A stretch of 64,000 nucleotides of DNA from Candidatus Fervidifonticultor secundus. GTDB taxonomy: Bacteria > Sysuimicrobiota > Sysuimicrobiia > Sysuimicrobiales > Humicultoraceae. The position numbers were made by a program. Of this stretch, positions 43,601 to 46,600 are shown one piece after another. Numbering within the stretch: the stretch's first letter is position 1; every line of letters begins with the position of its first letter. The stretch lies in NCBI GenBank assembly GCA_031459385.1, contig JAVKIP010000007.1, positions 1-64,000 on the forward strand, given 5' to 3'.

Positions 43601-46600
43601 GCCCGGGCAGGGTCGAGCGGGGCGTCGGGCTCCACTCCGGCCCGGGCGCAGAGTTCGTGCGCCAGCGCTGGCCCGATGCCCGCGGTGACGTCCAGCAGCG
43701 TGCGCCATGCCGGCGCGCCGGCGCGCTGTGCTGCCGCGGTCGCCAGCCCGGCCGCGGCCAGCGTTGCGGGCGTCGGCCGCGTCTGCACCGGTGGGGCATA
43801 GGGCCGGCGCGGCCGCACCTCGCGGCCCGGGCCGTCCACGGTACGCAGCGCCCCCACGATCAGCCCCTCCTGCACCAGCACGAGATTGGGGTGCCGCCCG
43901 GCGAGCTCGGCGTGGAGGGACGCCGGGCCTTCCAGCGTGTCCACGGCCACTGTGGCCAGACGCTCGAACGGCGCGGCGATCACGGCGCGGACGATTGCGC
44001 CGGTCAGGCGGCTGCGCACCAGGCCTGCGAACGCGTCCGCCCCGCCAGGCGGCGGCGCAGGGACCTCCACGAACCTGGCCCAGCCCGGCCGGGCGCACGC
44101 CAGCACCAGGCGGGTACGCCCGCCGCCGCGCAGGACCAGCACCACGGCAGCCGGGCCGGCGCCGAGCACGCGCATGATGCGCGCGCCGGCCAGGTCCTGC
44201 AGTTCGGCTACGACGGCGGCCAGCACGACGCTATCGAACGACGAGGGCCAAGAGGCGTTTCCGACCGGTGCCCGCATGCCGTCTTGCACGATACGGCTTC
44301 CGGCCCCGCAGCGCAACCGCCGGCACGGCGCACCGTGAGCGCAGCGCCCTGTTGCGGTGCCCGGGCAGGAGGCGTCTTCCGGTGGGCCGAAGTGTGACCG
44401 CGTGATCCGCAGCATGACCGGTTTTGGCGCCGCCGCCGTGTCCCTGCCTGGAGGGCGGCTGGCGGTGGAGATGCGCTCGGTCAACCACCGGTTCAGCGAG
44501 ATCCAGATCCGGCTGCCGCGGGATCTGGCCGGGCTGGAAGATCGGGTCCGCGCGGTGGTGCAGGGGCGGGTCCTGCGCGGCCGAGTGGAAGTCAGCGTGA
44601 CCCGCGAGGACAGCGGCCGGCGGGCAAGGGTCGTGCGGGCCGACACCGATCTCGCCGCGGCGTATGCGCAGGCGCTCCGGACCCTCGCCCGCGCGGTCGG
44701 CGCCGCCGGCGACGTGACGATCGACCACCTGGCGGCGTTGCCCGACGTGGTCGGGGTCGAGGAGGATCGCCCTGAGCTCGACGCCGTCTGGCCCCCGCTG
44801 GAAGAGGCGGTGCGGTCCGCCGCCGACGCCCTGGTGGCGATGCGGGCGGCGGAGGGGCGACGGCTCGCCCAGGACGTCCTGGCGCGGCTGGACGCACTCG
44901 GGCAGGCCGCAGAGGTCATCGCCGCGCGCAGCCGGCTGGTGGTGCAGGCCTACCGCGACCGCCTCCGGGCGCGCCTGGCCGAACTGTTGGGCGACGTGCC
45001 GGTGGACGAGGCGCGCATCGCCACGGAGCTGGCCGTCGTCGCCGAGCGCAGCGACATCACCGAAGAGCTGGTGCGGTTTCGCAGCCACCTCGCACAGTTC
45101 CGCGACACGGTGCTGGGCGAGGACGGCGCGGTGGGGCGCAAGCTGGAGTTCATCCTCCAGGAGATGGGGCGCGAGGTCAACACCGTCGGCGCCAAGGCCA
45201 ACGACCTGGAGATCACCCGGCAGGTCATCGCCATGAAGGCCGAACTGGAGAGCCTGCGGGAACAGGTGCAGAACGTCGAGTGAGGAGCAGCCGGGACGCA
45301 TGGAGCCGCGCCTCATCAACATCGGATTCGGCAATATCCTCGCGGCGAACCGCATCGTGGCCATCATCAGCCCCGACTCCGCGCCCGTCAAACGCATCAT
45401 TCAGGAGGCCCGCGAGCGCGGCACGCTGATCGATGCGACCTACGGCCGCCGGACCCGGGCGGTCGTCATCACCGACAGCGGGCACGTGGTGCTCGCCGCG
45501 GTCCAGCCCGAGACCGTTGCCCACCGCTACACCGCGCGCGACGACGGCGGGGACACGGCGGAGTGAAGGTGCCGGCGGTCACCGTCGCCGTCGGTGGCCC
45601 CATCGGCGTCGGCAAGACGACCGTGGCGCGTCTGCTCGCCGATCGGCTCGGCGTGCCCCTGATCTCGGCCGGGAGCGTCTTCCGCGAAGTGGCGCGGCGG
45701 CGCGGCGTCTCGGTCGTCGACCTGAACCGGCTCGCCGAGACCGACACGTCCATCGACCGCGACCTGGATCGCCTGCAGGGCGAGCTGGCCCGCGCAGGTC
45801 CGTGCGTCGTCGAGTCGCGCCTGTCGGGCTGGATGGTGCAGGCAGACCTCAAGGTCTGGCTCGACGCGCCGCTGGCGGTGCGTGCGGCTCGCGTGGCGGC
45901 CCGCGAGGGCCAGCCCCCGGCGCACGCACGTCAGGCGCTGCTCGAGCGCGAGAGCAGCGAGTGGTCGCGCTACAAGACGTTGTACGGTATCGAGTTCAGC
46001 GATCGCACGCCCTACCACGTGGTCATCGACACGAGCCGGTGGGACCCTGAGGTGATCGTCGACGTGCTCGAGCGCCTGGCGCGCGCGCTACGCCCGGCGG
46101 CGCACGCGCGGTAGCCCCGGCCGCCGGGCGATGTCCCCGTCCGCGCCCGCCGATTCCGCCGCGGACGCGCTCCTGGTGGCGCTCGACGTTCCGCTGCGCG
46201 CCGGCGACCTGGCGTTCACCTACAGCGCGGGGCCGGCCGCGGGCGCGCGCGCCGGCGACGGCGTGATCGTCCCGTTCGGCGCGCGCCTGCTCCCGGGCAT
46301 CGTGCTGGGCCCCGGCACCCCGCGGCCAGGCCTGCGCCCGGTCCTCGCGCGCGTGGAGGAAGGGCCGCTCGTCCCGCCCGCGGTGCTGGCGCTCGCCGCG
46401 TGGACGGCACACGAGTATCTCTCCACGGTGGGCGAGGCCCTGGCCGTGGCGACGCCGTGGGATGCGCTATGGCACACGGTGCGGCTGGAACTGCCGCCCG
46501 ACGCCCGGGGGCTGTCCCGCGCGCGGAGGGGCACGACCGGTCCTCGTCTCGTCTCGCTGGCGGGCGCGATGCAGGCCCTGCGGCGCACCCCGGAGCTGCT

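What a model noticed while it worked through the whole genome (the two positions that open the first line are those of the whole stretch)
45569..46114. No guanylate kinase in the phylum; an archaeal-type CMP-kinase homolog sits in the gmk slot
The genome, like every genome of its order that was searched, has no member of the guanylate kinase family, an enzyme held to be essential in bacteria, and in the conserved string yicC-remA-[gmk]-priA-def-fmt-rsmB the place of gmk is taken by g02861, a 181-residue kinase 47% identical to archaeal (Cytidylate_kin2 type) CMP kinases, although a normal bacterial CMP kinase (g01246) is also present. I read g02861 as the missing GMP kinase, an in-place replacement of Gmk by a member of the archaeal Cmk family. 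New would be a second guanylate kinase from another kinase family, with a bearing on archaea that also lack gmk.
Evidence so far: Pfam Guanylate_kin PF00625: 0 of 31 genomes of the order (27 of them >=90% complete) have a match over the cut-off, the two best sub-threshold hits reach 20.9 bits; the same search rings in 10 of 14 control genomes; no Swiss-Prot guanylate kinase hit for any protein here. g02861: Cytidylate_kin2 E 2e-22 over the whole model, best Swiss-Prot hits Halobacterium, Haloarcula, Pyrococcus Cmk 42-47%; bacterial-type Cmk g01246 52%; a third paralog g00590 is Cytidylate_kin2+BON. Gene order g02859 yicC, g02860 remA (86%), g02861, g02862 priA, g02863 def, g02864 fmt, g02866 rsmB. 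neighbours.tsv: a RemA-like gene next to this kinase (AAA_17 row) in 77 of 93 genomes of the order against 185 of 21,560 ge [...]
(Added by a program. Inside this text positions count along the whole contig: contig position 1 is position 1 of the stretch shown here. "Call 12" and the like, gene names such as g00115 and contig names such as C1 are that model's own, and its searches are not shown. The text may have been shortened before it was handed on; [...] marks where a part breaks off. The agent that wrote the report below was given it as the finding of a first reader that could run no searches.)

Follow-up and report, generated by a model that had tools for sequence, protein, structure and literature searches.

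The report
Archaeal-type kinase replacing bacterial guanylate kinase
A small kinase of the family annotated as "archaeal CMP kinase" sits where bacteria normally keep their guanylate kinase gene, in bacteria that have lost that essential gene, so it is probably their GMP kinase and a testable candidate for the guanylate kinase that has never been identified in archaea.

Summary
Observation confirmed. Window 45569-46114 (+) encodes a 181-183 aa P-loop kinase that scores 160.7 bits on NCBIfam TIGR02173 (archaeal-type (d)CMP kinase; cut-off 102.1) and lies in yicC-remA-[kinase]-priA-def-fmt-rsmB. The guanylate kinase family is missing from the genome (two models, six frames) and from 92 of 94 genomes of the phylum. 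The kinase is single-copy in 88 of 94 and the ordinary bacterial Cmk is kept in 85 of 94.

New here: in a sample of 341 high-quality genomes of other bacterial phyla, 333 have Gmk. Only two carry a TIGR02173 protein over the cut-off, and both lack Gmk and keep bacterial Cmk. One belongs to Silvanigrellaceae (Bdellovibrionota). There the pattern is exact: kinase 23/23, Gmk 0/23, Cmk 23/23, against kinase 0/63 and Gmk 63/63 in 13 sister families. The three bacterial groups branch at different places among archaeal sequences.

The best reading is non-orthologous displacement of Gmk (about 0.75). The substrate is untested, and no member of the family has a solved structure. I found no report of a biochemical assay.

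This scan noted the same idea earlier on other DNA (e1-6844805).

The parts
42556..44277 (-). NFACT/RqcH-like gene, divergent from the operon
   Evidence: Pfam NFACT_N 227.5 bits, NFACT-R_1/2
44357..45283 (+). yicC (endoribonuclease YicC-like)
   Evidence: Pfam YicC-like_N 148.9 bits and YicC-like_C 146.1 bits. The match starts at residue 17, so the true start may lie a little downstream.
45300..45566 (+). remA
   Evidence: Pfam RemA-like 122.5 bits. NCBIfam NF046064 gives 148.4 bits against a cut-off of 140.
45569..46114 (+). The kinase: TIGR02173 / Cytidylate_kin2 family, 181 aa (alternative GTG start at 45563, 183 aa). Proposed GMP kinase.
   Evidence: SD GGAG 45560-45563; 2 nt after the remA stop. 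P-loop GGPIGVGKTT. AF2 model pLDDT 93.8.
46131..48248 (+). priA
   Evidence: Pfam PriA_3primeBD 54.1 bits; PriA_C below its cut-off
48287..48844 (+). def (peptide deformylase)
   Evidence: Pfam Pep_deformylase 151.2 bits. My first reference was out of frame and gave nothing.
48895..49821 (+). fmt (start approximate)
   Evidence: Pfam Formyl_trans_N 158.7 bits, Formyl_trans_C 98.4 bits
49849..50532 (+). Zn_peptidase_2 gene between fmt and rsmB
   Evidence: Pfam 292 bits
50519..51892 (+). rsmB
   Evidence: Pfam Methyltr_RsmB-F 178.5 bits, NusB 104.1 bits
51967..53049 (+). rlmN
   Evidence: Pfam RlmN_N 52.6 bits, Radical_SAM 69.6 bits
53046..55028 (+). PASTA Ser/Thr protein kinase (PrkC/PknB-like)
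   Evidence: Pfam Pkinase 171.1 bits, PASTA x3 139.5 bits

Best explanation
The gene encodes the organism's guanylate kinase (ATP + GMP -> ADP + GDP). An ancestor of the phylum acquired a short NMP kinase of the family annotated as 'archaeal-type (d)CMP kinase' (TIGR02173 / Pfam Cytidylate_kin2); its nearest named relatives are archaeal. This gene took over the essential function of Gmk and physically replaced gmk in the conserved string yicC-remA-gmk-(rpoZ)-coaBC-priA. It is translationally coupled to remA.

The protein is a P-loop kinase with a helical NMP-binding domain and an arginine-rich LID. That is the AK/Cmk-like fold, not the Gmk fold, so guanine must be recognised by a different structural solution.

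Shown:
- family membership;
- position in the slot;
- loss of Gmk;
- retention of bacterial Cmk;
- the same triple pattern in two further bacterial lineages.

Inferred:
- that GMP is the physiological substrate;
- whether CMP activity is kept as well.
For: (1) Need. The genome makes GMP (GMP_synt_C 142.9 bits) but has no Gmk by PF00625 (0 matches at E<=10) or by TIGR03263 (best 15.2 bits against 160.45). Both models ring over their cut-offs in 10 of 10 control bacteria.

(2) Phylum-wide pattern, 94 genomes. Gmk is over its cut-off in 2 of 94, both atypical. TIGR02173 is over its cut-off in 88 of 94, one copy each, and in 53 of 54 high-quality genomes. Bacterial Cmk (TIGR00017) is over its cut-off in 85 of 94 and in 52 of 54 high-quality genomes. 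CMP phosphorylation is therefore already covered.

(3) Slot. yicC-remA-kinase is in the same order in 30 of 30 loci. In other families a CoaC-like flavoprotein gene lies between the kinase and priA. I then looked at 20 Gmk loci from 20 genomes of other phyla. yicC lies directly upstream of gmk in 13, remA in 2, coaBC downstream in 8 and rpoZ in 5. One locus (L082) reads yicC-remA-gmk-rpoZ-coaBC-priA.

(4) Blind test outside the phylum. Of 341 genomes of other phyla (>=90% complete), 333 have Gmk. TIGR02173 is over its cut-off in only 2 (G175, G182). Both are among the 8 without Gmk, with nothing but P-loop noise at E<=1. Both have bacterial Cmk at 225 and 231 bits. The chance of 2 of 2 falling among the 8 is 28/57970 = 5e-4 (my arithmetic). 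A genome with a sub-threshold relative (G196, 60.9 bits) does have Gmk.

(5) Within the phylum of G175, 86 genomes. Family f89 (named as Silvanigrella and Fluviispira, that is Silvanigrellaceae) has TIGR02173 in 23 of 23, Gmk in 0 of 23 and Cmk in 23 of 23. The 13 other families have TIGR02173 in 0 of 63 and Gmk in 63 of 63.

(6) The three bacterial groups sit at three different places in the family tree, each next to sequences from outside it, which argues for separate acquisitions.

(7) No other good candidate in the genome. The Cytidylate_kin2+BON paralog has a degenerate P-loop. The remaining small P-loop kinases are Adk, Cmk, Tmk, CoaE, AroK-AroB and TsaE-like. No kinase sits next to the relocated rpoZ.
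Against: - No substrate data for any member of the family, here or (as far as my searches go) in print.
- By sequence and fold the protein is nearer to Cmk, AK, Fap7 and shikimate kinases than to Gmk. No Gmk appears among the listed Foldseek matches.
- NCBIfam rates TIGR02173 an 'equivalog' for (d)CMP kinase.
- I could not identify guanine-specifying residues.
- In the two other Gmk-less lineages the kinase is not in the gmk slot. It lies beside gatCAB in G175 and in a tsaD-rimI-kinase-uvrD string in G182.
- In those two lineages the Walker-A lysine is replaced: Asn in 5 of 5 Silvanigrellaceae sequences, Thr in G182. That is unusual for an active P-loop kinase.
- Six of the eight Gmk-less genomes in the outside sample have no TIGR02173 protein. 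Gmk can therefore be missing, or missed, for other reasons: two are 0.5-0.8 Mb genomes, and three have family-mates with Gmk.
- Each displacement counts as one evolutionary event, so the effective sample is three, not 118 genomes.
- Most genomes are MAGs.
Confidence: 0.75

Rival explanations
1. It is what the annotation says: a second, archaeal-type (d)CMP kinase. GMP is phosphorylated by something else, for example a broad-specificity adenylate kinase or an unrecognised enzyme.
For: TIGR02173 is labelled an equivalog for (d)CMP kinase. The fold neighbours with a known function are mostly Cmk. Adk is present and normal (ADK 173.7 bits). A 2014 paper proposes AK6-type broad kinases for the archaeal gap (PMC4177761, passages read).
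Against: A redundant CMP kinase would not be kept as a single copy in 88 of 94, 23 of 23 and 1 of 1 genomes beside a bacterial Cmk. Nor would its presence track the loss of Gmk in three lineages. Adk is universal, so it cannot explain why only these lineages could lose Gmk. The bacterial-Cmk hallmarks are absent: TIGR00017 gives 38.1 bits against 135.55, and only the first 56 of 211 Pfam positions match.
Confidence: 0.12
2. The kinase acts on another substrate or has a regulatory role tied to its neighbours (RemA, YicC). The coincidence with Gmk loss is then indirect.
For: The gene is tightly coupled to remA (2-nt gap or 4-nt overlap) in 30 of 30 loci. A third of the family lacks the Walker-A lysine. 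The nearest solved structures are uncharacterised 'putative kinases' (3hdt, 3fdi).
Against: The remA adjacency is what gmk itself has in other bacteria (L075, L082). It is not kept in the two other lineages. The NMP-kinase arginines (R41, R86, R107, R110, R114, R129, R136) are near-invariant in 144 family members. This rival also leaves the essential GMP kinase step without any candidate.
Confidence: 0.08
3. Gmk is present but was missed, through assembly gaps in MAGs or a very divergent Gmk.
For: Most genomes are MAGs. Two Gmk hits do occur in the phylum. Three Gmk-less genomes of the outside sample have family-mates with Gmk, so gaps do happen.
Against: Gmk is absent in 92 of 94 genomes, including G001 (4 contigs). 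It is also absent in Silvanigrellaceae genomes of 1-3 contigs (G510, G514, G515, G175). The searches ran in six frames with two models down to E 1-10. The slot where gmk should be is assembled and holds the other kinase.
Confidence: 0.03

Closest known systems
Archaeal-type (d)CMP kinase, NCBIfam TIGR02173 cyt_kin_arch / Pfam PF13189 Cytidylate_kin2 (recalled: HAMAP 'cytidylate kinase type 2')
   Same: A member by score (160.7 against 102.1 bits, full length) with 42-49% identity to archaeal members. Same length, P-loop, FR motif, two Asp in the NMP domain and LID arginines.
   Different: It is found in bacteria that also have the bacterial Cmk and lack Gmk, and it sits in the gmk slot. The family's CMP assignment seems to rest on homology alone. 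No member is in the PDB by sequence. I found no biochemical paper.
Guanylate kinase Gmk (EC 2.7.4.8; Pfam PF00625, NCBIfam TIGR03263)
   Same: Proposed same reaction and same essential role. Same chromosomal slot (yicC-remA-gmk-rpoZ-coaBC-priA). Both are P-loop NMP kinases.
   Different: No detectable sequence match. The predicted NMP-binding domain is helical, and no Gmk is among the listed fold matches. Not a member.
Bacterial cytidylate kinase Cmk (TIGR00017 / PF02224)
   Same: The nearest characterised relatives by fold (3r20, 7ckj, 3akc, 2h92) and by weak sequence match at the N-terminus.
   Different: 38.1 bits against a cut-off of 135.55. The protein is about 40 residues shorter. The 40-residue NMP-domain insert described as unique to bacterial CMPK (PMC3813627, passages read) has no room here. 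Where bacterial Cmk has 'GRD', this protein has 'SRL'. The role of that Asp in cytosine binding is recalled, not checked.
Uncharacterised Cytidylate_kin2 structures 3hdt (Clostridium symbiosum) and 3fdi (Eubacterium ventriosum)
   Same: Best Foldseek matches: E 7.5e-10 and 5.5e-9, TM 0.69-0.78.
   Different: 16-17% identity; function unknown; deposited as 'putative kinase' and 'uncharacterized protein'.

Membership tests
TIGR02173 / Cytidylate_kin2 (archaeal-type Cmk family) | Whole-protein score over the curated cut-off, full-length match | tested here: met
   160.7 bits against 102.1, model positions 2-165 of 169. Pfam PF13189 gives 82.3 bits against 28, positions 2-176 of 176.
TIGR02173 / Cytidylate_kin2 (archaeal-type Cmk family) | Family-invariant residues (P-loop glycines, F40-R41, D65, D69, R86, R107, R110, R114, R129, R136, Y141) | tested here: met
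   All are present in the window protein and in 11 of 11 phylum sequences, and are conserved in 119-144 of 144 family sequences.
TIGR02173 / Cytidylate_kin2 (archaeal-type Cmk family) | (d)CMP kinase activity, the function the family is named for | not testable with these tools
No solved structure of a member and no biochemical paper found.
Guanylate kinase (PF00625 / TIGR03263) | Sequence match to the family models | tested here: not met
   PF00625 does not appear among the 12 Pfam families matched at E<=0.01. The genome-wide six-frame search found nothing at E<=10. The best TIGR03263 score in the genome is 15.2 bits.
Guanylate kinase (PF00625 / TIGR03263) | Gmk-type fold | tested here: not met
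   The model has helices at 36-47, 51-58 and 62-77 in the NMP region. No Gmk is among the Foldseek matches listed. That Gmk's GMP-binding domain is a beta-sheet is recalled, not checked.
Guanylate kinase (PF00625 / TIGR03263) | GMP kinase activity (works like a Gmk) | not testable with these tools
   Inferred from phyletic complementarity in three lineages and from gene position.
Bacterial Cmk (TIGR00017 / PF02224) | Score over the cut-off; 40-residue NMP-domain insert | tested here: not met
   38.1 bits against 135.55, with only residues 6-63 matched. PF02224 matches positions 1-56 of 211. The true bacterial Cmk is elsewhere in the genome (C12:79402-80040, 239.2 bits).

The most novel reading that the evidence does not exclude
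The whole TIGR02173 'archaeal CMP kinase' family is misnamed or under-named. It is the long-missing guanylate kinase of Archaea, possibly a dual GMP/CMP kinase. Bacteria that acquired a copy could discard Gmk at least three separate times.

Archaea in the control set fit this. 4 of 4 have TIGR02173, 0 of 4 have Gmk and 0 of 4 have bacterial Cmk over the cut-offs. A 2014 survey states that the archaeal enzyme is unidentified (PMC4177761).
Probability: 0.5. Interest if true: 0.9.

Novelty: new variant of a known kind. Interest (0 to 1): 0.8.

Why it matters
GMP kinase is an essential step on the only route to GDP and GTP, and Gmk is treated as a universal bacterial core gene. Three things follow if this reading holds.

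- **A second guanylate kinase.** A whole phylum, a cultured family (Silvanigrellaceae) and a further lineage live without Gmk. They would use an enzyme of another NMP-kinase family, with a different NMP-binding architecture.
- **The archaeal gap.** It makes a long-standing gap directly testable. Archaea show the reaction, but no gene has been assigned (PMC4177761). The same family is present in all four control archaea.
- **Annotation.** It would correct a widely propagated annotation ('(d)CMP kinase'). It would also change metabolic reconstructions that currently carry an orphan GMP kinase reaction.

Cultured Silvanigrella and Fluviispira strains and genetically tractable archaea give ready experimental systems.

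Tried and rejected
- **Other candidate GMP kinases in the genome.** The 12 places with any TIGR02173-like signal and 75 Walker-A ORFs resolve to known proteins. These are Adk, bacterial Cmk, Tmk, CoaE, AroK-AroB fusion, TsaE, MiaA, Lon, RuvB, ABC ATPases and GTPases, named by eye from sequence; Pfam was run only on Adk and the BON paralog. Two exceptions remain: an AAA_33-like ORF on C20, and the Cytidylate_kin2+BON protein, whose P-loop is degenerate. None is as good a candidate.
- **A kinase beside the relocated rpoZ.** There is none.
- **Reading substrate specificity from structure.** No TIGR02173 member is solved. The best Foldseek hits are uncharacterised. I had no access to model coordinates and no GMP or CMP ligand option, so I made no residue-level claim.
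- **A residue compensating for the missing Walker-A lysine.** No position is clearly enriched in K/R among the 51 non-Lys sequences.
- **Family-wide scan of genome contigs with alignment A1.** The tool found no stretch conserved enough. I used the single G175 protein instead. That named the lineage but returned only 4 loci.
- **Phylum of G182.** Only 1 genome passed the 90% completeness filter, so there is no within-lineage contrast there.
- **G189.** This 1.4-Mb genome lacks Gmk. Its full-length weak TIGR02173 hit is simply shikimate kinase in an aro operon, so its missing Gmk stays unexplained.
- **Spirochaetota.** The Atlas lists Spirochaetota clusters of this family. A table in PMC10370097 marks gmk in three Borrelia species as 'NL', no literature support. 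I could get no spirochaete genome handle, so this lineage is untested.
- **Literature.** Seven searches found no paper that assigns an archaeal GMP kinase or assays an archaeal-type Cmk. PMC8305020 (open annotation issues in Haloferax) has none of the six terms I searched. One search was badly framed: min_terms 2 let the organism names dominate.
- **Taxon names of the 150 representatives.** Only about 12 clusters carry names. All named ones outside the phylum are archaeal.
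Full report
**What is there.**
The ORF at window 45563-46114 (+) is real. A GGAG at 45560-45563 lies five bases upstream of it, and the remA stop codon TGA is at 45564-45566. The gene therefore begins two bases after remA ends, or overlaps it by four bases if GTG 45563 is used.

The product matches Pfam Cytidylate_kin2 over the whole model (E 6.1e-23). It matches NCBIfam TIGR02173 'cyt_kin_arch, (d)CMP kinase' at 160.7 bits against a cut-off of 102.1. It does not qualify as a bacterial Cmk (TIGR00017, 38.1 bits against 135.55, N-terminus only).

Pfam confirms the neighbours:
- NFACT/RqcH on the minus strand;
- then, on the plus strand, yicC, remA, the kinase, priA, def, fmt, a Zn_peptidase_2 gene, rsmB, rlmN and a PASTA Ser/Thr kinase.

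My first def reference was out of frame. The corrected one scores 151.2 bits.

**Absence of Gmk.**
The own assembly is 97.6% complete with 5.5% contamination. A six-frame search with PF00625 gives no match even at E<=10. A second model, TIGR03263, reaches 15.2 bits against a cut-off of 160.45. Both models are over their cut-offs in the 10 control bacteria and in none of the 4 control archaea. The genome has GMP synthase, so it does make GMP.

The order and the phylum hold the same 94 genomes. PF00625 is over its cut-off in 2 of them.
- G068 carries a canonical Gmk on a 2.1-kb contig in the order rluD-gmk-coaBC. That is not the phylum's arrangement. Its six genus-mates have none, so I take it for a binning contaminant.
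- G023 (8% contamination) carries a 400-residue fusion of H2TH, zf-FPG and a Gmk-like domain at 67.8 bits. This is not a housekeeping Gmk.

Three genomes of one genus have P-loop-only hits of 20.5-21.8 bits.

**The kinase and Cmk across the phylum.**
TIGR02173 is over its cut-off in 88 of 94 genomes, one copy each, and in 53 of 54 genomes that are >=90% complete and <=5% contaminated. A contig-end fragment accounts for an 89th genome. The five genomes without a match are 65-78% complete, or in one case 92% complete in 1050 contigs. Bacterial Cmk is over its cut-off in 85 of 94 (52 of 54 high-quality). So both 'Cmk' types are conserved side by side while Gmk is gone.

G016 and G024 are flagged as unpublished. 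Each adds one genome to these counts, and no claim depends on them.

**The slot.**
I examined 30 of the 89 loci, taking the best-scoring ones. In 30 of 30, yicC, remA and the kinase follow each other on one strand. In other families of the phylum a 184-225-residue Flavoprotein (CoaC-like) gene lies between the kinase and priA. I saw this in L028, L037 and L041; L041 is from the unpublished G016. The window's own genus has lost that gene from this place. Its rpoZ stands alone on another contig with no kinase beside it.

To avoid relying on my memory of the Bacillus map, I fetched 20 Gmk loci from 20 genomes of other phyla. These were the top rows of the place list, skipping two at contig ends and adding the next two. 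The results:
- yicC directly upstream of gmk in 13 of 20;
- remA upstream in 2;
- coaBC downstream in 8;
- rpoZ downstream in 5;
- priA downstream in 2.

One locus (L082, G299) reads yicC-remA-gmk-rpoZ-coaBC-priA. The phylum's string yicC-remA-kinase-coaC-priA is this string with the kinase where gmk should be.

**A test outside the phylum.**
The 'relatives' option returned 60 genomes of the phylum and 341 of other bacterial phyla, spread over some 250 families, all >=90% complete. Gmk is found in 333 of the 341 and in 1 of the 60 (G023). TIGR02173 is over its cut-off in 59 of the 60 and in 2 of the 341, G175 and G182.

The handles missing from the Gmk list are G156, G175, G182, G189, G289, G306, G331 and G431. 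So both TIGR02173 carriers are among the eight Gmk-less genomes. At E<=1 they show nothing, or only 20-40-residue P-loop noise, and TIGR03263 gives at most 16.3 bits. Both have a bacterial Cmk (225.4 and 231.4 bits). By my arithmetic, the chance that two genomes picked at random both fall among the eight is 28/57970, about 5e-4. G196 has only a 60.9-bit relative and does have Gmk (151.8 bits).

The other six Gmk-less genomes have no TIGR02173 protein.
- Two are 0.5-0.8 Mb genomes.
- Three have family-mates with Gmk, which suggests assembly gaps.
- One (G189, 1.4 Mb) is unexplained. Its weak hit is a shikimate kinase.

**Silvanigrellaceae.**
Sampling the phylum of G175 gave 86 genomes. Family f89 has TIGR02173 in 23 of 23, Gmk in 0 of 23 and bacterial Cmk in 23 of 23. 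The 13 other families have TIGR02173 in 0 of 63 and Gmk in 63 of 63. The search for related loci names relatives of the G175 protein as Silvanigrella sp., Fluviispira multicolorata, an uncultured Oligoflexia bacterium and a Bdellovibrionota bacterium. Several f89 genomes are in 1-3 contigs, so gaps cannot explain the absence.

In these genomes the kinase lies next to gatCAB. In G182 it lies in a tsaD-rimI-kinase-OB-fold-uvrD string. In-place replacement is therefore special to the window's phylum, while the trade of Gmk for this kinase is not. G182's own phylum yielded only that one genome.

**Origin.**
A full HMMER scan of 1.84 billion representatives found 1374 relatives at E<=1e-10. All named clusters outside the phylum are archaeal: Thermoplasmatota, Ferroglobus, Aenigmarchaeota, Anstonellaceae and several Asgard groups. 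Most clusters carry no name.

Members of the phylum are labelled 'Armatimonadota bacterium', 'Candidatus Segetimicrobium genomatis' or 'Terrabacteria group bacterium ANGP1'. From recall, this corresponds to the candidate phylum CSP1-3 / Sysuimicrobiota.

In a FastTree of 74 sequences:
- the phylum is monophyletic, next to the unnamed P0124;
- the Silvanigrellaceae protein groups with P0180, P0238 and P0169 (support 0.96);
- the G182 protein groups with P0176, inside a different clade.

Deep nodes are weak and the protein is short. Three separate acquisitions is the simplest reading, but it is not proven.

**What kind of enzyme.**
The AlphaFold2 model is confident (pLDDT 93.8). It shows a five-stranded P-loop core, a helical NMP-binding region and a helical LID.

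Foldseek's best matches are two uncharacterised Cytidylate_kin2 structures (3hdt, 3fdi). After them come bacterial Cmk, Fap7, dephospho-CoA kinase, archaeal Adk and shikimate kinase. No Gmk is listed. No member of TIGR02173 is in the PDB by sequence; the best hit is a bacterial Cmk at E 1.3e-6.

The 40-residue insert that PMC3813627 (passages read) describes as unique to bacterial CMPK is absent. Where bacterial Cmk has 'GRD', this family has 'RL' followed by a small residue. The role of that Asp in cytosine binding is recalled, not checked.

Near-invariant in 144 family members are R41, D65, D69, R86, R107, R110, R114, R129, R136 and Y141. Nothing here tells guanine from cytosine, so the specificity remains an inference from genomics.

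**Literature.**
PMC4177761 (2014; passages read) states that the reaction is known in Archaea but the gene is unidentified. It proposes AK6-type kinases. My seven searches found no later assignment and no assay of an archaeal-type Cmk.

The library holds only open-access papers and preprints, so a subscription-journal report could exist. Supplements were not consulted.

It is an unchecked AI note, and I do not count it as evidence.

**Verdict.**

The bolder corollary is that the family is the missing archaeal guanylate kinase, perhaps with dual GMP/CMP specificity. It fits the four control archaea: TIGR02173 in 4 of 4, Gmk in 0 of 4, bacterial Cmk in 0 of 4. I could not test it further.

Noticed in passing
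family alignment; L065:7766-8449 (-), L066:7863-8417 (-), P0292: The Walker-A lysine is not conserved in this kinase family. Of 144 sequences it is K in 88, T in 47, R in 3, N in 3 and A in 1. Silvanigrellaceae have Asn (5 of 5 sequences), and G182 and Ferroglobus have Thr. The window's phylum keeps Lys (11 of 11). No compensating K/R position was found.
   Followed up: partly
proteins P0122, P0123, P0125, P0126, P0285: Proteins of 374-382 residues with two tandem TIGR02173-like kinase domains. One cluster is labelled Candidatus Aenigmarchaeota archaeon. The two domains could be specialised for two different NMPs.
   Followed up: no
L010:895-2097 (+) (G023:C148): A 400-residue fusion of Fpg-type H2TH and zinc-finger domains with a guanylate-kinase-like domain (67.8 bits), next to a glycosyltransferase. 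The contig has 63% GC and the MAG has 8% contamination.
   Followed up: partly
G000:C4, L002:1237-2046 (-): A Cytidylate_kin2 + BON domain protein (117.4 and 52.3 bits) whose P-loop is degenerate, with no GK[ST]. It is probably not a kinase.
   Followed up: partly
window 46115-46130; L028, L037, L041; G000:C20:8901-9056: The window's genus has lost the CoaC-like flavoprotein gene that other families of the phylum keep between the kinase and priA. rpoZ is not in the cluster at all; it stands alone on another contig.
   Followed up: partly
genomes G156, G306, G189: Three further bacterial genomes of 0.5-1.4 Mb, 93-100% complete, have neither Gmk nor a TIGR02173 protein. G156 also lacks bacterial Cmk. 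How they phosphorylate GMP is open.
   Followed up: partly
window 49849-50532 (+): A Zn_peptidase_2 gene (292 bits) lies between fmt and rsmB and overlaps rsmB by 14 bases.
   Followed up: no
G000:C1, L003:973-3078 (+): One long open frame reads as a shikimate kinase followed by a 3-dehydroquinate synthase (an AroK-AroB fusion). This was judged from the sequence by eye only.
   Followed up: no
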